Of a stretch of 46,330 bases of DNA, positions 10,805-43,630 are shown one piece after another (position 1 is the first letter of the stretch; each line of letters opens with the position of its first letter). Location of the stretch: IMG/VR virus record IMGVR_UViG_2541047733_000004. One strand, given 5' to 3'. Below the pieces are notes generated by a model. The model was not told the origin of the DNA. It saw only the letters and a list, made by a program, of their open reading frames with translations, and ran no database searches. A program made the position numbers and the translations under genes. The DNA is from a virus. Its lineage: Duplodnaviria; Heunggongvirae; Uroviricota; Caudoviricetes.

Positions 10805-11386
10805 ATGAACAACTCATGGTGGCAGGAACTAATGCATTTTTTCCTGCAAGGAATGACACTTAAACAGTTGATTCATATGCTAATCATCCTGATCATATTG
10901 ATTATTGTTATGCCGGTAAGCGTAAAAGAATGGATAAACCTGCATAGTCCAGAAATCCTTCCTCATTACTGGATGTATTACATCCTGTTGTTTTGCGTTA
11001 GCTATGTGCTTAACGGCGTTGTTAATTCCGCTTATCACGCTGTGACTGAAAGAATTGAGGTATTCGCTGCTCAGAAGCGCAAATCTAAAGAAGAAAAATA
11101 TGTGCAAGATTTGTTTGATTCGTTAACTCTTGGAGAAAGAGCGTATTTGGCATTCGCTGTAGCCGCTAATAACCAGCTACAAACGGAAAAGGGCGCTCAT
11201 GAATCAATTTCATTGCTCAAAAAAGGACTCCTCGTTCGAAGGCCTCCTGCTGTTGGATATCCTGATACCGACCGTTTCGTTATCCCTGAAAGCTATAGAC
11301 ATGAGTGCTACATTAGGTTTGCCGGGAAGGCAGACAGCCTTATGGATGAACTTATCGCTCAGGATAAGCATGGCAAAAACAAGTAA
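10805..11386 (+). CDS. sieB: SieB, superinfection exclusion protein B
   Basis: 193 aa, N-terminus MNNSWWQELMHFFLQGMTLKQLIHMLIILIILIIVMPV with a TM segment as in lambda SieB; opposite strand to the pL operon as in lambda. Confidence 0.8.
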   Translation: MNNSWWQELMHFFLQGMTLKQLIHMLIILIILIIVMPVSVKEWINLHSPEILPHYWMYYILLFCVSYVLNGVVNSAYHAVTERIEVFAAQKRKSKEEKYVQDLFDSLTLGERAYLAFAVAANNQLQTEKGAHESISLLKKGLLVRRPPAVGYPDTDRFVIPESYRHECYIRFAGKADSLMDELIAQDKHGKNK

Positions 11387-19717: not shown

Positions 19718-20800
19718 TTAGAACTGATAAACCAGACCTACAGCGACGATGTCGTCGGTATCAATACCAGCTGTTTTGGTAAACTTACTATCGTCAATTA
19801 AGTTGATTTTGTAATCAACAAAAGTGGACATGTTTTTATTAAAGTAGTAAGTAGCACCGACATCGACATACTTGACTAAGTCTCGGTCACCATGAACACC
19901 AAGGTCTTTACCTTTTGACTGAAGGTAAGCAACAGATGGACGCAGACCGAAGTCAAACTGATATTGTGCTACTGCTTCAAAGTTTTGTGCTTTGTTTGCA
20001 ATATGGTTATTACCAAAAACGGTCATATTCTGAGTTTCAGAATATGTGGTAGCCAGATAGATATTGTTCGCATCATATTTCAGGCCTGCAGCCCATACTT
20101 CCGCATTTTTGCCGGAGGCATTGAATTTGCTCTTACCATAGGCGACCTGACCGTCAGTGCGATCTGATTTAGCATAGGTTGCACCCACGCCGAATCCTTC
20201 ATACTCATAAGTAGTGGAGAAACCGAAACCATCACCATTGGCTTCAGTTACGTCAGTGCGGTCATTTTTACCCTGATACTGAGCAGCAAAGTTCAGGCCA
20301 TCGACCAGACCAAAGAAGTCGTTGTTACGATAAGTTGCAACACCAGTAGTGCGACCAGTCATGAACACATCTGTTTGGGTCCAGGTATCACCACCGAATT
20401 CTGGCAGAACGTCAGTCCACGCACCGATGTCGTATGCTACACCGTAGTTACGGCCGTAATCGATTGAGCCGTAATCACCAAATTTCAGGCCTGCAAATGC
20501 AAGACGGGTTTTGTCTTTGGAAGAACCTTGAGATTCAGCACGGTTGCCTTTGAATTCATATTCCCACTGACCGAAACCAGTCAGTTGATCGTTGATTTGG
20601 GTTTCACCTTTGAAGCCAAGACGGGCATAAGTAGTATCACCATCATCTGCATCATTAGAGGAGAAGTAGTGCTTGGCATTAACTTTCCCGTATAGATCCA
20701 GCTTGTTACTGTCTTTATTATAAATTTCAGCTGCCTGAGCAGACATCGCCATCAGTACTGATGCAGCTACAGCAGAAATTGCCACTGTTAATTTTTTCAT
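19718..20800 (-). CDS. nmpC: OmpC-family outer-membrane porin (NmpC/Lc-type), apparently intact
   Basis: About 360 aa from [23 protein letters not shown] (signal peptide) to the terminal ...VGLVYQF aromatic residue; porin motifs; AT-rich promoter region upstream; same Q-to-lysis position as nmpC in DLP12. Confidence 0.9.
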
Positions 20801-21226
20801 TGTACGCCCTTTTTTTGAACTATTATTAAAAAATGATGTCACTGCGCGATAAATATTCATCTAATCAATGTGATTATTTCAAGATGTAAGTTTTAGTTTC
20901 TCATTTAATTTGTGAAGTAGATCTCTATTTTTATCTGAACCTTTTCTATCTAATCCTATTCATGGCTCTTGTCTGAACAAAAATAAATCTATTAGCTAAT
21001 TTATATTAATGGCACTTATTTATAAGTGCTCTATAATTCTTTAGCTTAATTTAAACAAACTAAAAATAACATCGGAAATTATTAACTGGTTATTTGTTGA
21101 AGTTTTCTTATGCATTTGTGGTGGTGTTTTGAACACTCGGTGGCATTCTCACAAATATCATTTAGTAGTTTACGTACGTAAAAAATTGGTTATGCTGTTA
21201 AGAGTGGTTACTTCGTCACACAGCTT

Positions 21227-21256
21227 AAACCCGCCGTCGAGCGGGTTTTTCCATTT
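21227..21256 (+). terminator. Candidate intrinsic terminator upstream of the lysis genes
   Basis: Hairpin CCCGC-CGTCGA-GCGGG followed by TTTTTCCATTTTTT. Confidence 0.55.
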
Positions 21257-21388: not shown

Positions 21389-21604
21389 ATGAAATCCATG
21401 GATAAGTTAACAACGGGTGTCGCCTATGGTACCTCAGCAGGTAGTGCCGGGTACTGGTTTTTACAGTTGCTCGATAAAGTCACGCCCTCACAGTGGGCGG
21501 CAATAGGTGTGCTGGGTAGCCTGGTATTTGGCCTGCTGACGTACCTGACAAACCTTTATTTCAAGATTAAAGAAGATAAGCGCAAGGCTGCGAGAGGTGA
21601 ATAA
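21389..21604 (+). CDS. S: Class II holin (phage 21 S-type pinholin)
   Basis: 71 aa, two TM segments; [20 protein letters not shown]...[13 protein letters not shown] closely resembles S21. Confidence 0.9.
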
Positions 21605-22101
21605 TGCCTCCATCATTACGAAAAGCCGTTGCTGCTGCTATTGGTGGCGGAGCAATTGCTATAGCATCAGTGTTAATCACTGGCCCAAGTGGTAACGATG
21701 GTCTGGAAGGTGTCAGCTACATACCATACAAAGATATTGTTGGTGTATGGACTGTATGTCACGGGCATACAGGAAAAGACATCATGCTCGGTAAAACGTA
21801 TACCAAAGCAGAATGCAAAGCCCTCCTGAATAAAGACCTTGCCACGGTCGCCAGACAAATTAACCCGTACATCAAAGTCGATATACCGGAAACAATGCGC
21901 GGCGCTCTTTACTCATTCGTTTACAACGTGGGTGCTGGCAATTTCAGAACATCGACGCTTCTTCGCAAAATAAACCAGGGCGATATCAAAGGCGCATGTG
22001 ATCAGCTACGTCGCTGGACATATGCTGGCGGTAAGCAATGGAAAGGTCTCATGACTCGTCGTGAGATTGAGCGTGAAATCTGTTTGTGGGGTCAGCAATG
22101 A
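21604..22101 (+). CDS. R: SAR endolysin (T4-lysozyme-like, phage 21 R type)
   Basis: 165 aa; N-terminal Gly/Ala-rich signal-anchor-release segment then lysozyme domain; overlaps holin stop. Confidence 0.9.
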
Positions 22102-22559
22102 ACAGAGTAACCGCGATTATCTCCGCTCTGGTTATCTGCATCATCGTCTGCCTGTCATGGGCTGTTAATCATTACCGTGATAACGCCATTACCTACAAAG
22201 CCCAGCGCGACAAAAATGCCAGAGAACTGACGCTGGCGAACGCGGCAATTACTGACATACAGATGCGTCAGCGTGATGTTGCTGCGCTCGATGCAAAATA
22301 CACGAAGGAGTTAGCTGATGCGAAAGCTGAAAATGATGCTCTGCGTGATGATGTTGCCGCTGGTCGTCGTCGGTTGCACATCAAAGCAGTCTGTCAGTCA
22401 GTGCGTGAAGCCACCACCGCCTCCGGCGTGGATAATGCAGCCTCCCCCCGACTGGCAGACACCGCTGAACGGGATTATTTCACCCTCAGAGAGAGGCTGA
22501 TCACTATGCAAAAACAACTGGAAGGAACCCAGAAGTATATTAATGAGCAGTGCAGATAG
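22098..22559 (+). CDS. Rz: Rz i-spanin
   Basis: N-terminal TM segment and coiled-coil periplasmic domain; contains the Rz1 frame. Confidence 0.85.
22318..22500 (+). CDS. Rz1: Rz1 o-spanin lipoprotein, embedded in Rz in the +1 frame
   Basis: 60 aa with lipobox (VVVGCTS) and proline-rich C-terminus ([15 protein letters not shown]). Confidence 0.85.
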
Positions 22560-22590
22560 AGCTGCCCATATCGATGGGCAACTCATGCAA

Positions 22591-22884
22591 TTATTGTGAG
22601 CAATACACACGCGCTTCCAGCGGAGTATAAATGCCTAAAGTAATAAAACCGAGCAATCCATTTACGAATGTTTGCTGGGTTTCTGTTTTAACAACATTTT
22701 CTGCACCACCACAAATTTTTGCTGCATCGACAGTTTTCTTCTGCCCAATTCCCGAAACGAAGAAATGATGGGTGATGGTTTCCTTTGGTGTTACTGCTGT
22801 AGGTTTGTTTCCAACAGTAAACGTCTGTTGAGCACATCCTGTAATAAGCATTGCCAGAGCGGCAGAAAACAACATTTTTTTCAT
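22591..22884 (-). CDS. bor: Bor outer-membrane lipoprotein (Iss-like serum resistance)
   Basis: About 97 aa from MKKMLFSAALAMLITGC (lipobox); matches lambda Bor. Confidence 0.85.
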   Translation of the reverse strand: MKKMLFSAALAMLITGCAQQTFTVGNKPTAVTPKETITHHFFVSGIGQKKTVDAAKICGGAENVVKTETQQTFVNGLLGFITLGIYTPLEARVYCSQ

Positions 22885-23364
22885 CTTATTATCCTGCATT
22901 GTTAAAAACGGCAGAATCCTATGTGACAACAATTAAACGATAGTTAAATGGATTGATGAAAATTAAAACTACACAGGTGGGCTCAGACTATTGGAGGAAG
23001 TTGGGGACACTCAGAATCCTGTGGAATGAAATAAACCGGTCTATCCGTCCATTACCCTTTTAGCTGCGCTGTATCGTCGCCGTATTCCCGCATTAACCAT
23101 GACCGTAGCCCGACGGGGAATTCCTTCTGCGTGAGTGTGCGGGAATAATTAAAAACGATGCACACCGGGTTTTTACCGCGTTAATGATTCGCGGGTTTAT
23201 CCCGGTGCGATGGTGGAAGAAACAGGAAGCTGTATTACAGAAAGTGCTACTACTGTATCCCGATGCGATGTATGTAATGTGAGTCAGATAATGGCACAGG
23301 ATGTGGTGATGTGGCAGTCTGGAACACAGGATATATTGTCAGAATAAGACCCGTAGGAATAAAA

Positions 23365-23691
23365 ATGAAAAGACGCCTTTTACTACTTTTTCTGTTATCT
23401 GTCCTGGCAGTGGGATGCTCGCAGCAAAAAGCTGATGAGCCCCGGCAATTAGTGACGGTGTATCCACGATATCCGGAATATGCTGCAGCAAATTATATCA
23501 AGGGGCTGGTTGAGGTTAAGTTCGATATTGGTGCTGATGGGACTGTGACACGGATCGTTTTTCTCCGCTCAGAGCCTCATAATTTGTTTCGTGATGAAGT
23601 GGTGAAGGCCATGGCGAAATGGCGATTTGAAAAGAATCGCCCCTGTCAGGGAGTGAAGAGACAATTTATCTTTACGCCGTCACGTCCTTGA
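23365..23691 (+). CDS. Lipoprotein consisting essentially of a TonB C-terminal domain
   Basis: Signal peptide plus lipobox MKRRLLLLFLLSVLAVGC; the rest (VYPRYPEYAAANYIKGLVEVKFDIGADGTVTRIVFLRSEPHNLFRDEVVKAMAKWRF) aligns by eye with the TonB C-terminal domain. Confidence 0.7.
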   Translation: MKRRLLLLFLLSVLAVGCSQQKADEPRQLVTVYPRYPEYAAANYIKGLVEVKFDIGADGTVTRIVFLRSEPHNLFRDEVVKAMAKWRFEKNRPCQGVKRQFIFTPSRP

Positions 23692-24054
23692 TGCTTCCAG
23701 GTAGAGAGGGGCTGGAAGCAGGAGAAAAATGAAAGAGCCAGCGGTTATATTTTTGTCATGGCTGACGAGGAATGATGGAAGAAGGCGTTGTATGCCACAC
23801 AACGCCTCACTGTTCATTTCTTCTTTTTCTCTGGTGGAACCCGATGAATAAGAGTTGCACTGGTTTCCGATGAGATGGCGATATACTCGGGCAAAGTATG
23901 CTGGCAGTTTTCCAACTGGTCAAAAATACCTGCTCTCGTCTGTTGCAATGCCTGCAGCATGCGGCGGCAATGCGCCTTGCTTTTACTAACCATCTTTCCT
24001 TCCTCTATCAGTCGCTGCGTGAACTCATCATGGAATACCAGGTAAATGCGGATG

Positions 24055-24306
24055 TTATCGGTTTTGGCTACGCAGCATAGTACAAAACGGACAGGTGCAT
24101 CCCGGGACGGGGGAGGCGTCACATGTCCCTGTGATGGTTGTTCCGGGTAATGTACTGTGTGGGGCATAAAAATGTCCGATAATTTTACTTTCTACCGCAG
24201 TTAGTTGATTCGTTGGTCCTGGTAGCACATTGGGCGAGGATTTAAATGCCAGGCAACTGAAGGATGATGTCGCAAGGGAGATAGCGAGAATATTTCTGAT
24301 TTTCAT
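24055..24306 (-). CDS. Possible small secreted Cys-containing protein
   Basis: MKIRNILAISLATSSFSCLA signal-peptide-like start with GAGG upstream; overlaps the alternative ORF 23814..24167, so coding status is uncertain. Confidence 0.3.
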   Translation of the reverse strand: MKIRNILAISLATSSFSCLAFKSSPNVLPGPTNQLTAVESKIIGHFYAPHSTLPGTTITGTCDASPVPGCTCPFCTMLRSQNR

Positions 24307-24452
24307 TTGATGATGCCTCTGTGTGAAATGACGGTAAACGACGCACTTGTGCCGGCACATAATAGCAAGCACCATAATAGATCAGATTCGATTCTTGCTG
24401 TAAGTGATAATTATTCTCGTTTTCGGGTCCTTTCCGTCGATCCAACAGGTTA

Positions 24453-24640
24453 CGGGGCGGCGACCTCGCGGTTTTTCACTATTTATGAAAATTTTTCAGG
24501 GAAAATCGTGTCGGTACTTCTCGAATATAACTTTTTGTTTTTTTTAATATTGCATCCGTAAAGGTCCGACATGAAAGTGTCCGAAAATGCCTTTTTCTGG
24601 CGTTTTCATGTCGGGCCTTGTATTTGATAATGGGTTGTTT
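24453..24640 (+). other. cos site: cosN 12-nt cohesive end GGGCGGCGACCT plus cosB with candidate terminase-binding inverted repeats
   Basis: GGGCGGCGACCTCGCGG...TTTATGAAAATTTT as at lambda cosN; inverted repeat TCCGACATGAAA / TTTCATGTCGG and a third GTCCGAAAATG element just upstream of Nu1. Confidence 0.85.
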
Positions 24641-24642
24641 TC

Positions 24643-25191
24643 ATGAAGGTTAATAAAAAGAGGCTTGCCGAAATTTTCAACGTGGACCCGCGGACGATTG
24701 AACGCTGGCAGTCTCAGGGACTCCCTTGCGCCTCCAAAGGTAGTAAGGGCATTGAATCTGTATTTGATACTGCCATGGCAATTCAGTGGTATGCGCAGAG
24801 GGAAACTGATATCGAAAACGAAAAGCTCCGCAAAGAACTGGACGATTTGCGTGCGGCAGCGGAGTCAGATTTACAACCCGGCACCATTGACTATGAACGC
24901 TACCGGCTCACAAAAGCGCAGGCAGATGCGCAGGAACTGAAAAATGCCCGTGAAGACGGAGTAGTGCTGGAAACTGAACTGTTTACCTTCATTCTGCAAC
25001 GTGTGGCACAGGAGATTTCGGGGATACTTGTGCGTGTGCCGTTGACATTACAGCGTAAATATCCGGACATTTCACCATCACACCTTGATGTGGTGAAAAC
25101 TGAAATCGCGAAAGCCTCCAATGTTGCAGCTAAGGCCGGTGAAAACGTGGGCGGGTGGATCGATGATTTCAGACGCGCAGAAGGCAGCTAA
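24643..25191 (+). CDS. nu1: Terminase small subunit Nu1
   Basis: 182 aa; collinear with lambda Nu1 ([12 protein letters not shown]...AEIENEKLR...[27 protein letters not shown]), N-terminal DNA-binding region divergent. Confidence 0.9.
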
Positions 25192-40147: not shown

Positions 40148-43100
40148 ATGGGTAAAGGCAGCAGTAAGGGGCATACCCCGCGCGAAGCGAAGGACAACCT
40201 GAAATCATCCCAGATGCTGAGCGTGATAGACGCCATCAGCGAAGGGCCGGTTGAAGGTCCGGTGGATGGATTAAAAAGCGTGCTGCTGAACAGTACGCCG
40301 GTGCTGGACAGTGAGGGGAATACCAATATATTCGGCGTCACGGTGGTGTTCCGGGCCGGTGAGCAGGAGCAGACACCGCCGGAGGGATTTGAATCCTCCG
40401 GCTCCGAGACGGTGCTCGGTACAGAAGTGAAATATGACACGCCGATCACCCGGACCATCACGTCGGCAAACATTGACCGTCTGCGTTTTACTTTCGGCGT
40501 GCAGGCACTGGTGGAAACCACCTCAAAGGGGGACAGGAATCCATCGGAAGTCCGCCTGCTGGTTCAGATTCAACGTAACGGTGGCTGGGTGACGGAAAAA
40601 GACATCACCATTAAGGGCAAAACCACGTCGCAGTATCTGGCCTCGGTGGTGGTGGATAACCTGCCGCCGCGCCCGTTTAATATCCGGATGCGCAGGATGA
40701 CGCCGGACAGCACCACAGACCAGTTGCAGAACAAAACGCTCTGGTCGTCATACACCGAAATCATCGATGTGAAACAGTGCTACCCGAACACGGCACTGGT
40801 CGGCGTACAGGTGGACTCGGAGCAGTTCGGCAGCCAGCAGGTGAGCCGTAATTATCATCTTCGCGGGCGCATTCTGCAGGTGCCGTCGAACTATAACCCG
40901 CAGACGCGGCAATACAGCGGTATCTGGGACGGAACGTTTAAGCCAGCATACAGCAACAACATGGCCTGGTGTCTGTGGGATATGCTGACCCATCCGCGCT
41001 ACGGCATGGGGAAACGTCTTGGTGCGGCAGATGTGGATAAATGGGCGCTGTATGTCATCGGCCAGAATTGCGACCAGTCAGTGCCGGACGGCTTTGGCGG
41101 CACGGAGCCGCGCATCACCTGTAATGCGTACCTGACCACACAGCGCAAGGCGTGGGATGTGCTCAGTGATTTTTGCTCGGCGATGCGCTGTATGCCGGTA
41201 TGGAACGGGCAGACGCTGACATTCGTGCAGGACCGACCGTCGGATAAGGTGTGGACCTATAACCGCAGTAATGTGGTGATGCCGGATGATGGCGCGCCGT
41301 TCCGCTACAGCTTCAGCGCCCTGAAAGACCGCCATAATGCCGTTGAGGTGAACTGGATTGACCCGGATAACGGCTGGGAGACGGCGACAGAGCTTGTGGA
41401 GGACACGCAGGCCATTGCCCGTTACGGTCGTAACGTCACGAAGATGGATGCCTTTGGCTGTACCAGCCGGGGGCAGGCACACCGCGCCGGGCTGTGGCTG
41501 ATTAAAACGGAGCTGCTGGAAACGCAGACCGTGGACTTCAGCGTGGGTGCAGAAGGGCTTCGCCATGTACCGGGCGATGTCATTGAAATCTGTGATGATG
41601 ACTATGCGGGGATCAGCATCGGCGGGCGCGTGCTGGCGGTGAACAACCAGACGCGGACACTGACGCTCGACCGTGAAATCACGCTGCCATCCTCCGGCAC
41701 CACGCTGATAAGCCTGGCTGACGGACAGGGGAATCCGGTCAGCGTGGAGGTCCAGTCCGTCACCGACGGCGTGAAGGTAAAAGTGAGCCGTGTTCCTGAC
41801 GGCGTTGCAGAATACAGCGTGTGGGGGCTGAAGTTGCCAACGTTGCGCCAGCGCCTGTTCCGCTGTGTGAGTATCCGTGAGAACGATGACGGCACGTATG
41901 CCATCACTGCCGTGCAGCATGTACCGGAAAAAGAGGCCATCGTGGATAACGGGGCGCACTTTGACGGCGACCAGAGCGGCACGGTGAATGGTGTCACGCC
42001 GCCAGCGGTGCAGCACCTGACTGCCGAAGTCACCGCAGACAGCGGGGAATATCAGGTGCTGGCGCGCTGGGACACGCCGAAGGTGGTGAAGGGGGTGAGC
42101 TTTATGCTTCGCCTGACCGTGGCAGCGGATGACGGCAGTGAGCGGCTGGTCAGCACGGCCCGGACGACGGAAACCACATACCGCTTCAGGCAACTGGCGC
42201 TGGGGAACTACAGGCTGACAGTCCGGGCGGTAAATGCGTGGGGGCAGCAGGGCGATCCGGCATCGGTATCGTTCCGGATTGCCGCACCGGCAGCGCCGTC
42301 GCAGATTGAGCTGACACCGGGGTATTTTCAGATAACCGCCACGCCGCATCTTGCGGTTTATGATCCGACGGTACAGTTTGAGTTCTGGTTCTCGGAAAAG
42401 CGGATTGCGGATATCAGGCAGGTTGAAACCACAGCACGCTATCTTGGCACGGCGCTGTACTGGATAGCCGCCAGTATCAATATCAAACCGGGCCATGATT
42501 ATTATTTTTACATCCGCAGTGTGAACACCGTTGGCAAATCGGCATTTGTGGAGGCTGTTGGCCAGCCGAGTGATGATGCATCCGGCTATCTGAATTTTTT
42601 CAAAGGAGAGATAGGGAAAACCCATCTGGCTCAGGAGTTGTGGACGCAGATTGATAACGGTCAGCTTGCGCCTGACCTGGCTGAAATCAGGACGTCCATT
42701 ACGGGTGTCAGCAATGAAATCACGCAGACCGTCAATAAGAAACTGGAAGACCAGAGTGCAGCGATCCAGCAGATACAGAAGGTTCAGGTTGATACAAATA
42801 ATAACCTGAACAGCATGTGGGCTGTGAAGCTGCAGCAGATGCAGGACGGACGCCTTTATATCGCGGGTATTGGTGCCGGTGTTGAGAATACTCCTGACGG
42901 TATGCAGAGTCAGGTGCTGCTGGCGGCGGACAGGATTGCGATGATTAATCCTGCGAATGGCAACACAAAGCCGATGTTTGTTGGGCAGGGCGATCAGATA
43001 TTCATGAACGAAGTGTTCCTGAAATATCTGACGGCTCCCACCATTACCAGCGGTGGCAATCCCCCAACGTTTTCACTGACACCTGATGGTCGACTTTCTG

Positions 43101-43630
43101 CGAAAAATGCGGATATCAGCGGTAACGTGAACGCGAACTCCGGGACGCTCAACAACGTCACGATTAATCAGAACTGTCGGATTCTGGGAAAACTGTCAGC
43201 TAACCAGATTGAAGGTGATATTGTCAAAACGGTGGGAAAAGCCTTTCCGAGAAATGGCAGTTATGCCAGCGGTACAATAACGGTCACTGTGTACGATGAC
43301 CAGGCTTTTGACCGTCAGATAGTAGTCCCCCCCGTTCTGTTTCGTGGGGGTAAGCATGAAAACTTCAACAGCAACAACCAACAGTCATACTGGTATTCAA
43401 CCTGTAAGCTGCAGGTACTGAAGAACGGACAGGAAATCTTTCAGCAACCCGCGACGGATGTCAGCAGGGTATTTTCATCAGTCATTGATATGCCTGCCGG
43501 ACACGGCCATGTCACCCTGACTTTCAATGTTTCTTCATATGGTGCTAATAACTGGACGCCAACGACCAGTATCAGCGACCTTCTTGTTGTTGTGATGAAG
43601 AAATCTACAGCCGGTATCAGTATCAGTTGA
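40148..43630 (+). CDS. J: Central tail fibre / host specificity protein J
   Basis: 1160 aa, [34 protein letters not shown]...; lambda gpJ family. Confidence 0.95.

What the first reader, a model, noticed from the sequence alone, without database searches (positions are those of the whole stretch)
23365..23691. Prophage lipoprotein that is essentially a stand-alone TonB C-terminal domain
A 109-aa ORF between bor and cos has a lipoprotein signal (MKRRLLLLFLLSVLAVGC) followed almost only by a segment that aligns by eye with the TonB C-terminal domain (YP..P..A....I.G.V.V.F.I..DG.V........S.P...F...V..A...WRF). TonB's C-terminal domain contacts the TonB box of outer-membrane transporters such as FhuA, BtuB and FepA. 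A lipid-anchored periplasmic copy could act as a decoy that blocks TonB-dependent uptake. That would be a superinfection-exclusion or colicin-immunity mechanism against TonB-dependent phages (T1, phi80) and group B colicins. It sits in a moron slot next to another envelope lipoprotein, bor. I do not know of a described phage function of this kind.
Basis: partly seen in the sequence, partly recalled or inferred. Interest (0 to 1): 0.8.

Follow-up and report, generated by a model that had tools for sequence, protein, structure and literature searches.

The report
Phage lipoprotein mimicking TonB's C-terminal domain
A phage 21-type prophage encodes a small outer-membrane lipoprotein that is essentially just the receptor-docking domain of the bacterial TonB protein; it could jam TonB-dependent uptake, and so block other phages and colicins, but nobody has tested this.

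Summary
ORF 23365-23691 (+) encodes 108 aa: a lipoprotein signal (…LAVG|C18, Ser at +2), a tether of about 8 residues, and one TonB C-terminal domain. That domain aligns without gaps to E. coli TonB 151-230 at 40% identity. An AlphaFold model (pLDDT 86) superposes on TonB as bound to BtuB and FhuA at about 1 Å.

The gene is real and under constraint (dN/dS 0.12). It is identical in classical phage 21 and present in 1225 of 5426 complete E. coli genomes. It travels in a 1.2-kb cassette between the lysis genes and cos. Lipoprotein homologues at 32-72% identity occupy the same slot in Stx1a-type, Klebsiella and Rahnella prophages.

It is not a TonB: there is no membrane anchor and no proline-rich spacer. 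It is not a spanin either, because Rz and Rz1 are already present.

The decoy idea is plausible but untested. Engineered periplasmic TonB fragments do inhibit the TonB system. The carrier phage uses LamB, and the lineage also carries SitABCD and a porin.

Against it, I found no promoter of its own, and it lies in the late operon. Its carriers include strains generally held to depend on siderophore uptake. Soluble chromosomal homologues also exist.

Databases label it only "TonB family protein", and I found no functional study.

The parts
23365..23691 (+). Gene for the 108-aa TonB_C lipoprotein (stop codon included)
   Evidence: ORF. Pfam TonB_C E=7e-13. Identical to phage 21 CPT_21_73. dN/dS is 0.12 against the 72%-identical allele.
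23355..23358 (+). Shine-Dalgarno AGGA, 6 nt upstream of the ATG
   Evidence: Read from the sequence. Phage 21's annotation places a ribosome-binding site at the matching position.
23365..23418 (+). Lipoprotein signal peptide and lipobox (MKRR-LLLLFLLSVLAVG-C18); Ser19 at +2 predicts outer-membrane sorting
   Evidence: Read from the sequence. Cys18 is invariant in 9 aligned homologues. Canonical lipoboxes (LLGC, LSAC, LVGC and others) occur in distant members. Sorting is inferred from the +2 rule and not tested.
23419..23439 (+). Short tether (residues 19-25, SQQKADE) between the lipid anchor and the domain
   Evidence: Low pLDDT at residues 14-25 of the model. The ordered domain starts at about residue 26.
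23440..23673 (+). TonB C-terminal domain (residues 26-103; helix, strand, strand, helix, strand)
   Evidence: Gapless alignment to TonB 151-230. AlphaFold2 secondary structure H38-42, E47-55, E61-70, H76-83, E94-103. Foldseek hits on 2gsk_B and 2grx_C at rmsd about 1 A.
23174..24398 (.). 1.2-kb mosaic cassette carrying the gene, with 190 bp upstream and about 700 bp downstream
   Evidence: Homology with phage ev207 and other relatives stops at 23173 and resumes at 24399. In 73 of 80 IMG/VR loci the four cassette segments are 97-100% identical (one locus ends inside the cassette; six carry the 72% allele), while the Rz, bor, cos, nu1 and A flanks differ. GC is 46.7% against 52-57% in the structural genes.
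22591..22884 (-). bor/iss lipoprotein gene, the upstream neighbour on the opposite strand
   Evidence: PF06291 E=1e-30. Annotated as iss in Nissle 1917.
22086..22559 (+). Rz (i-spanin), with Rz1 (o-spanin) embedded at 22318-22500. The spanin pair is already complete.
   Evidence: PF03245 E=8e-54 and PF06085 E=3e-20.
24643..25191 (+). Terminase small subunit Nu1, the downstream neighbour; cosN lies at about 24454
   Evidence: PF07471 E=2e-81. The cos position comes from register with the end of phage 21.
19718..20860 (-). Porin (OmpD/NmpC-like) accessory gene in the same prophage
   Evidence: Porin_1 E=2e-151.
40148..43630 (+). Tail-tip protein J. Its C-terminal 250 aa are identical to those of phage 21, whose native receptor is LamB.
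   Evidence: for the identity; bioRxiv 10.1101/2024.04.15.589635 for the receptor.

Best explanation
The gene encodes a TonB mimic tethered to the outer membrane. After export, lipidation at Cys18 and Lol sorting (Ser at +2), a 10.5-kDa basic TonB C-terminal domain would hang about 8 residues below the inner leaflet of the outer membrane. That is the place where TonB-dependent transporters expose their TonB boxes. The domain cannot transduce energy, because it has no inner-membrane anchor, no ExbB/ExbD coupling and no proline-rich spacer. Docking to TonB boxes by strand pairing through its third beta-strand would therefore compete with the real TonB. That would dampen TonB-dependent uptake, and with it entry of TonB-dependent phages, group B colicins and microcins. 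The carrier phage uses LamB, so the effect would be exclusion of other agents, not masking of its own receptor. The gene is transcribed at least with the Q-dependent late operon; any expression in the lysogen must be low or conditional.

Shown here: the fold, the lipobox, the selection on the gene, its location and its distribution. Inferred: outer-membrane localisation, TonB-box binding, inhibition and timing of expression.
For: The sequence and fold are those of TonB's docking domain, in its transporter-bound shape. All five aromatic positions of TonB (F180, F202, W213, Y215, F230) and the YP motif are kept. The importance of those five positions is from my knowledge of TonB mutagenesis.

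The lipobox Cys is invariant, and all four phage-borne lineages examined carry lipoboxes with S, T or A at +2.

Purifying selection is strong: dN/dS 0.12 at dS 1.5.

The same slot, between the lysis cassette and terminase on the late strand, is occupied in four unrelated prophage backgrounds at 32-72% identity.

There is experimental precedent. Periplasmic TonB fragments block ferrichrome transport and cause iron-deficient growth.

A known analogue class exists. Llp and Cor are small lipoproteins of the outer membrane's inner leaflet that bind the periplasmic face of FhuA.

The carrier phage's receptor is LamB. The same prophage lineage carries a porin and SitABCD, a TonB-independent route for Fe/Mn.
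Against: No binding or phenotype data exist.

No sigma-70-like promoter of at least 9/12 matches lies between bor and the ATG. The best candidates score 8/12, and there is no Fur box. Expression in lysogens is therefore unsupported.

The gene is carried by 23% of complete E. coli genomes, including Nissle 1917. Many carriers are generally held to depend on TonB-dependent siderophores (my knowledge, not tested here), so strong constitutive inhibition is unlikely.

TonB R158, Q160 and R166 are T31, Y33 and Y39 here, and these positions vary across the family.

Soluble or lipidated homologues are ordinary chromosomal genes in Erwinia, Serratia and a cellulose-synthesis (bcs) locus. That hints at a more general periplasmic role.

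A benefit from blocking TonB late in a lytic cycle is not obvious.
Confidence: 0.4

Rival explanations
1. It is a periplasmic adaptor with a target other than TonB boxes. The TonB_C fold is a general strand-pairing module, and the lipoprotein may bind native TonB's C-terminal domain, ExbD, another outer-membrane protein or an unknown ligand. Its effect might or might not run through the TonB system.
For: [quoted passage not shown] The C-terminal domain of the TonB homologue FusB, crystallised in complex with its ferredoxin substrate (PDB 9hi3), is among the top structural hits. Chromosomal soluble homologues occur in varied non-phage contexts. The TonB-box-linked residues R158, Q160 and R166 are not conserved.
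Against: A tether of about 8 residues to the outer membrane keeps the domain far from ExbD, which is anchored in the inner membrane. The closest structural matches are the transporter-bound TonB conformations. No alternative partner is suggested by conserved gene neighbours.
Confidence: 0.22
2. It is a late-expressed accessory to lysis or envelope remodelling. An outer-membrane lipoprotein whose TonB-like domain binds peptidoglycan or envelope proteins could tune lysis timing or envelope integrity. This would fit its constant position right after the lysis cassette.
For: It sits directly downstream of holin, endolysin and spanin genes on the late strand in four phage lineages. No + strand terminator was found between the site at 21227 and the gene, and no promoter of its own. 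PHROG 1267 is labelled 'Rz-like spanin'. Peptidoglycan affinity of the TonB C-terminal domain has been reported (my knowledge, not checked here).
Against: Rz and Rz1 are both present and intact, so it is not the spanin. The lysis cassettes it follows are unrelated to one another (pinholin with SAR endolysin in one case, holin_8/3_7 with a GH19 endolysin in another), which argues against a specific lysis partner. Many close relatives such as ev207, 2G7b and 434 lyse without it. That slot is a general accessory-gene site; bor lies there too.
Confidence: 0.13
3. It masks the phage's own receptor, as Cor and Llp do, to prevent superinfection and loss of progeny on cell debris.
For: Llp and Cor set the precedent of small phage outer-membrane lipoproteins acting on a TonB-dependent receptor from the periplasmic side.
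Against: The J C-terminal 250 aa are 100% identical to phage 21's, and phage 21's native receptor is LamB. Phages with the same J (1H12, Lambda_ev110, mEp460_4F5) lack the gene. The cassette recombines independently of the tail genes.
Confidence: 0.04
4. It is a decaying fragment of a captured tonB gene with no function, as the old annotation 'partial tonB-like' implies.
For: Old annotations call it 'partial', 'truncated' or 'TonB fragment'.
Against: dN/dS is 0.12 with near-saturated synonymous divergence. It has a dedicated lipoprotein signal with an invariant Cys, and full-length 107-133-aa homologues down to 30% identity. The exact sequence was seen on at least 1000 contigs. The model is a complete, confidently folded domain.
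Confidence: 0.02

Closest known systems
E. coli TonB C-terminal domain (residues about 150-239; PDB 1U07, 1XX3, 2GSK, 2GRX)
   Same: It is homologous: 40% identity over 80 residues with no gaps. It has the same helix-strand-strand-helix-strand fold at about 1 A rmsd, and keeps the YP motif and the five aromatic positions.
   Different: It lacks the N-terminal transmembrane anchor, the proline-rich spacer and the last residues beyond the position equivalent to T235. It is attached to the opposite membrane by a lipid. R158, Q160 and R166 are replaced. It cannot transduce energy.
Engineered periplasmic TonB fragments (signal sequence fused to TonB 33-239, 103-239 or 122-239)
   Same: Both are a TonB periplasmic or C-terminal domain exported without its energy-coupling anchor. 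The fragments are dominant-negative for TonB-dependent transport. This is the direct functional precedent.
   Different: The fragments are artificial, soluble and overexpressed. The phage protein is natural, lipid-anchored and only 40% identical, and its inhibitory activity is untested.
T5 Llp and the Cor proteins of phi80, N15 and HK022
   Same: These are small phage-encoded lipoproteins of the outer membrane's inner leaflet. They act on a TonB-dependent transporter from the periplasmic side to exclude phages.
   Different: The fold is unrelated; there were no Pfam or PHROG hits to them. They are specific for FhuA and block the phage's own receptor allosterically. The TonB mimic would be generic for TonB boxes, and its carrier phage uses LamB.
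Bor/Iss and Lom accessory genes of lambdoid prophages
   Same: They are small envelope proteins encoded in accessory slots of the late region. Bor is the immediate neighbour.
   Different: Bor is on the opposite strand. It is known (my knowledge) to have its own promoter, to be expressed in lysogens, and to confer serum resistance. There is no homology.
FusB and other TonB paralogues (HasB, TonB2)
   Same: They have TonB_C domains that have diverged in partner specificity. The FusB C-terminal domain is a top structural hit, and PDB 9hi3 shows it in complex with its ferredoxin substrate.
   Different: They are full-length energy transducers anchored in the inner membrane.

Membership tests
TonB_C domain family (Pfam PF03544 / TIGR01352) | Profile match above the curated cut-off | tested here: met
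   PF03544 scores 49.2 bits against 24.6. TIGR01352 scores 47.4 against 27.1.
TonB_C domain family (Pfam PF03544 / TIGR01352) | Helix-strand-strand-helix-strand fold that superposes on solved TonB C-terminal domains | tested here: met
   The AlphaFold2 model has pLDDT 86. Foldseek against 1u07, 2gsk_B and 2grx_C gives TM 0.90-0.92 at rmsd 0.9-1.5 A. TolA domain III scores only E>0.1.
TonB energy transducer (NCBIfam equivalogs NF008080-NF008084) | Full-length equivalog score above the cut-off | tested here: not met
   The best score is 69 bits against a cut-off of 315, and only the C-terminal 80 profile positions match.
TonB energy transducer (NCBIfam equivalogs NF008080-NF008084) | Uncleaved N-terminal transmembrane anchor that couples to ExbB/ExbD, followed by a proline-rich spacer | tested here: not met
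   The N-terminus is an 18-residue lipoprotein signal ending in a lipobox Cys. Only about 8 residues separate the Cys from the domain, and there is no Pro-rich stretch.
TonB energy transducer (NCBIfam equivalogs NF008080-NF008084) | Binding of transporter TonB boxes through the third beta-strand | not testable with these tools
   The third strand (residues 94-103) is predicted and has a free C-terminal edge. No complex prediction or binding assay was available.
Bacterial lipoproteins (Lgt/LspA/Lnt pathway) | Positively charged start, hydrophobic stretch and a lipobox [LVI..][ASTV..][GAS]C | tested here: met
   The sequence is MKRR-LLLLFLLSVL-AVG-C18. The Cys is invariant, and distant members have canonical LLGC, LSAC and LVGC lipoboxes. 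Lipidation itself was not tested.
Bacterial lipoproteins (Lgt/LspA/Lnt pathway) | No Asp at +2, which predicts outer-membrane sorting | tested here: met
   The +2 residue is S, A or T in all phage-borne members. Localisation is inferred from the rule.
o-spanin / 'Rz-like spanin' (the label of PHROG 1267) | Short proline-rich lipoprotein with no globular domain, encoded within or next to the i-spanin gene, one per phage | tested here: not met
   Rz (PF03245) and the embedded Rz1 (PF06085, 22318-22500) are already present. This protein is a globular TonB_C domain, separated from Rz by bor on the other strand.
Llp/Cor superinfection-exclusion lipoproteins | Sequence or fold homology to Llp or Cor | tested here: not met
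   Only TonB_C was found in Pfam, and there were no Cor or Llp PHROGs. All structural hits are TonB or TolA. The resemblance is functional at most.
Llp/Cor superinfection-exclusion lipoproteins | Blocks the carrier phage's own TonB-dependent receptor | tested here: not met
   The carrier's J is identical to phage 21's, and phage 21's native receptor is LamB.
Known anti-phage defence systems (PADLOC-DB 2.0) | Match to any model | tested here: not met
   No hits at E<=1.

The most novel reading that the evidence does not exclude
The prophage rewires metal uptake to make its host broadly immune. A lipid-anchored TonB mimic would lock all TonB-dependent gates from inside the outer membrane. That would exclude TonB-dependent phages, group B colicins and siderophore-microcins in one stroke. 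The phage's own porin and SitABCD importer would supply iron and manganese by a TonB-independent route.
Probability: 0.15. Interest if true: 0.85.

Novelty: new variant of a known kind. Interest (0 to 1): 0.6.

Why it matters
If the decoy function is real, it would be exclusion by molecular mimicry of a host energy transducer. One small protein would act on every TonB-dependent transporter, whereas Llp and Cor each block a single receptor.

The gene sits in about a quarter of complete E. coli genomes, including Nissle 1917 and Stx1a-converting phages. It could therefore affect susceptibility to phage therapy and colicins, uptake of siderophore-antibiotic conjugates, and iron physiology in many strains.

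It would also be a natural tool for probing TonB-box recognition. It is cheap to test, because classical phage 21 carries the identical gene.

Tried and rejected
- **Spanin label.** PHROG 1267 is labelled 'Rz-like spanin'. I rejected this because Rz and Rz1 are both present.
- **Self-receptor masking.** Rejected, because J is identical to phage 21's and phage 21 uses LamB.
- **Pseudogene or fragment.** Rejected on dN/dS 0.12 and the conserved architecture.
- **Own promoter or Fur box upstream.** The scan found nothing at 9/12 or better on the + strand. A relaxed scan gave only 8/12 candidates. The best Fur-box match upstream is 11/19, which is background level.
- **Intrinsic terminator after the gene.** None found.
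- **Rfam, 22500-24800.** Only chance-level hits.
- **PADLOC.** No hit.
- **Other ORFs in the cassette.** Only PHROGs of unknown function.
- **BFVD viral structure library.** No significant match.
- **afdb50 library.** Not available.
- **The search for related loci on genome contigs.** I used the look-up of encoding contigs for context instead.
- **First AlphaFold2 run.** With 6 close sequences it gave only pLDDT 61. A 25-sequence alignment fixed this.
- **Literature.** Ten full-text searches found no functional study. Papers mention prophage 'tonB' only as a presumed iron-transport gene, and the phage 21 genome announcement does not discuss it.
- **Link to sitABCD.** All 7 phage records with this allele carry sit, but 20 records with sit lack the allele and JLK-2012 has the other allele without sit. 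It is an association within one lineage, not a rule.

Full report
**1. What is there**

The window is a lambdoid prophage in prophage gene order. It runs from integrase (1-1143, - strand) through SieB, NinB and Q to a porin accessory gene (19718-20860, - strand). Then come holin, endolysin (21604-22101), Rz (22086-22559) with embedded Rz1 (22318-22500), and bor (22591-22884, - strand). After those lie the ORF in question, cos, Nu1 (24643-25191), terminase A, the head and tail genes, J (40148-43630) and the side tail fibre.

The ORF is at 23365-23691 on the + strand. It is 327 nt, or 108 codons plus a stop, and AGGA lies 6 nt before the ATG. Everything else in the description is accurate.

**2. 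The protein**

Residues 1-18 are MKRRLLLLFLLSVLAVGC: a charged start, a hydrophobic core and a lipobox Cys, with Ser at +2. The rest is one TonB C-terminal domain.

- Pfam TonB_C scores E=7.3e-13, at 49 bits against a cut-off of 24.6.
- TIGR01352 is also above its cut-off. The full-length TonB equivalog models are far below theirs, at 69 against 315 bits, and match only their C-terminal 80 positions.
- Against PDB sequences, the best hits are E. coli TonB C-terminal domain chains at E about 1e-14. Residues 24-103 align to TonB 151-230 without a gap, with 32/80 identities (40%).
- A first AlphaFold2 run on six close sequences was weak, at pLDDT 61. With 25 diverse family members the model reached pLDDT 86.4, above 95 across the domain.
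- Foldseek against the PDB puts E. coli TonB first. 1u07 gives TM 0.90. 2gsk_B, the BtuB-bound form, gives rmsd 1.1 A over 79 columns. 2grx_C, the FhuA-bound form, gives 0.9 A over 75.
- FusB and Pseudomonas TonB follow. TolA domain III is only marginal, at E>0.1.

The mature protein has 90 residues, a mass of about 10.5 kDa and a pI of 9.8. Only about 8 residues separate the lipidated Cys from the ordered domain.

By the gapless register, the YP motif is kept, and so are the aromatic positions F180, F202, W213, Y215 and F230. R158, Q160 and R166 are T31, Y33 and Y39. Those three are the residues classically tied to TonB-box contacts, which is my knowledge of the TonB literature rather than something tested here.

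**3. It is a real, selected and widespread gene**

- The identical DNA is in classical phage 21, annotated as CPT_21_73, 'TonB C-terminal domain protein'. It is also identical in ev017 and PhiR47_2/57_1/63_2, and 99.7% identical (one base different) in Perceval.
- It is present in 1225 of 5426 complete E. coli genomes, including Nissle 1917, where it is annotated 'TonB family protein'.
- The exact protein was seen on at least 1000 contigs, and 176 IMG/VR viral contigs encode it or a close relative.
- A second allele at 72% amino-acid identity occurs in four Stx1a-converting phage records, Lys8385Vzw and JLK-2012. Between the two alleles dN/dS is 0.12 with dS about 1.5. This excludes a decaying fragment.

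**4. The family**

An exhaustive HMMER search found 5311 TonB_C proteins. Apart from fragments of the same E. coli gene and two multi-domain proteins, the best hits are small proteins of 107-133 aa. Each has a signal sequence followed by a single TonB_C domain.

Many have canonical lipoboxes (LLGC, LSAC, LVGC). Others have ordinary signal peptides.

Genomic context splits them into two groups.

*Prophage-borne lipoproteins* lie between the lysis cassette and terminase, on the late strand:
- E. coli phage 21-type prophages;
- JLK-2012;
- Klebsiella phage ST13-OXA48phi12.4, 41% identity, lipobox LLGC;
- a Rahnella inusitata prophage, 32% identity, with unrelated holins and a GH19 endolysin.

*Chromosomal genes in non-phage contexts:*
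- Erwinia rhapontici, soluble form;
- Serratia, soluble form, in one case beside a pore-forming colicin and its immunity gene, and in a sister genome beside a SIR2 gene;
- a lipoprotein inside a bcs cellulose locus.

**5. The cassette**

Relatives such as ev207, 2G7b and 434 are collinear with the window up to 23173. They then differ until about 24399, just before cos.

Across 80 IMG/VR loci, 73 carry the segment 23174-24398 at 97-100% identity. One further locus ends inside the cassette, and six carry the 72% allele. The flanks change around it: the Rz allele varies, bor is present or absent, and cos, nu1 and terminase A range from 73% to 100% identity.

The gene therefore rides on a 1.2-kb mosaic module. 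Its GC content is 46.7%, against 52-57% for the structural genes. That is typical of accessory genes.

**6. Expression**

The gene is on the late-operon strand. The consensus scan found no promoter-like site on the + strand between 21037 and 24603. It found no terminator-like site on that strand between 21227 and 24162. A relaxed scan gives only 8/12 promoter candidates, and there is no Fur box.

The safest inference is transcription with the Q-dependent late operon. Expression in the lysogen is neither shown nor excluded.

**7. Mechanism**

The protein cannot be an energy transducer, because it has no anchor and no spacer. It is not the o-spanin that its PHROG label suggests, because Rz and Rz1 are already present.

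It is not a Cor/Llp-style mask of the phage's own receptor. The J C-terminus is identical to phage 21's, and phage 21's native receptor is LamB (bioRxiv 10.1101/2024.04.15.589635). Phages with the same J also lack the gene.

There is direct precedent. Periplasmic TonB 33-239, 103-239 and 122-239 fragments inhibit the TonB system and abolish ferrichrome transport (bioRxiv 10.1101/2020.01.05.895219, citing earlier work).

The geometry fits as well. A short tether would hold the domain at the inner leaflet of the outer membrane, which is where Llp acts on FhuA. TonB and Llp compete for that same surface (bioRxiv 10.64898/2026.03.26.714494).

The lineage also carries a porin and SitABCD. SitABCD lies just beyond the window's right end in phage 21, PhiR63_2 and Nissle 1917. 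Together they could offset reduced TonB-dependent iron uptake. All seven phage records with this allele carry sit. This is a lineage association, because 20 sit-positive records lack the allele.

**8. Reasons for caution**

- There are no functional data in ten literature searches.
- The phage 21 genome announcement does not discuss the gene.
- Other papers list prophage 'tonB' only as a presumed iron-transport gene.
- The gene has no promoter of its own that I could find, and it is in a late position.
- Carriers such as Nissle 1917 are generally held to rely on TonB-dependent siderophores. This is my knowledge and was not tested here.
- The residues linked to TonB-box contact are not conserved.
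- Chromosomal soluble homologues suggest a broader role for this small-protein family.
- The same precedent paper shows that periplasmic TonB can also act through the ExbD-TonB interaction. The short outer-membrane tether makes that route less likely here.

I put the decoy explanation at about 0.4. A different binding target gets about 0.2, and a lysis or envelope accessory role about 0.13. Self-receptor masking and a dead remnant are each below 0.05, and the remainder is unassigned.

**9. Novelty**

The gene and its TonB_C homology are already in the databases. 'Partial tonB-like membrane protein, prophage CP-933N' is the older label. The identification itself is therefore not new.

What is not described, as far as the searchable literature shows, is its architecture as an outer-membrane lipoprotein. 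Also undescribed are its conserved late-region slot across genera, its cassette mobility and any function.

If it is inhibitory, it would be a new structural solution within a known kind: phage lipoproteins that disable TonB-dependent transporters from the periplasm. It would work by mimicking TonB and would be generic rather than receptor-specific. Phage 21 makes it directly testable.

Noticed in passing
just beyond window end (46330); L016 42620-46069; L015 11968-14001; L101 5461-8910: The same prophage lineage carries sitABCD, a TonB-independent Fe2+/Mn2+ ABC importer, right after the tail-fibre genes. It is present in phage 21, PhiR63_2 and the Nissle 1917 prophage next to a truncated icd (isocitrate dehydrogenase) gene. 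All 7 phage records with this TonB_C allele have sit, but 20 other sit-positive records lack the allele.
   Followed up: partly
window 19718-20860 (-): A full-length general porin (Porin_1, E=2e-151; OmpD/NmpC-like) is encoded as an accessory gene between Q and the holin.
   Followed up: partly
L009/L010 7001-9510: In Serratia ureilytica, a soluble (non-lipoprotein) homologue lies 68 bp upstream of a colicin-immunity-type gene (PF03526) that faces a pore-forming colicin (ColA_N plus Colicin). A sister genome has the homologue at the same site next to a SIR2 gene instead. This may be coincidence at a variable hotspot.
   Followed up: partly
window 23365-23691: PHROG 1267 matches this protein end to end (E=5e-43) and carries the functional label 'Rz-like spanin'. 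The label looks like a mis-annotation, because the phage has its own Rz and Rz1 and this protein is a globular TonB_C domain.
   Followed up: yes
window 23692-24398: About 700 bp downstream of the gene travels with it at 98-100% identity, yet has no convincing gene. It holds a 60-aa ORF on the + strand (PHROG 3744, unknown function), an overlapping - strand ORF (PHROG 4843) and a 7-bp inverted repeat at 23695-23719 with no T-run.
   Followed up: partly
window 24400-24424: A Fur-box-like sequence (15/19 match to GATAATGATAATCATTATC) sits at the cassette/cos boundary. Only two sites in the window score this high.
   Followed up: no
proteins P0038, P0041, P0052, P0064 and others: The strongest non-family hits of the profile include proteins of 460-800 aa with 3-6 tandem TonB_C domains. 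I did not look into this architecture.
   Followed up: no
window 10805-11386 (+): The prophage also encodes SieB (PF14163, E=9e-22), a classical superinfection-exclusion protein, so it already invests in exclusion functions.
   Followed up: no
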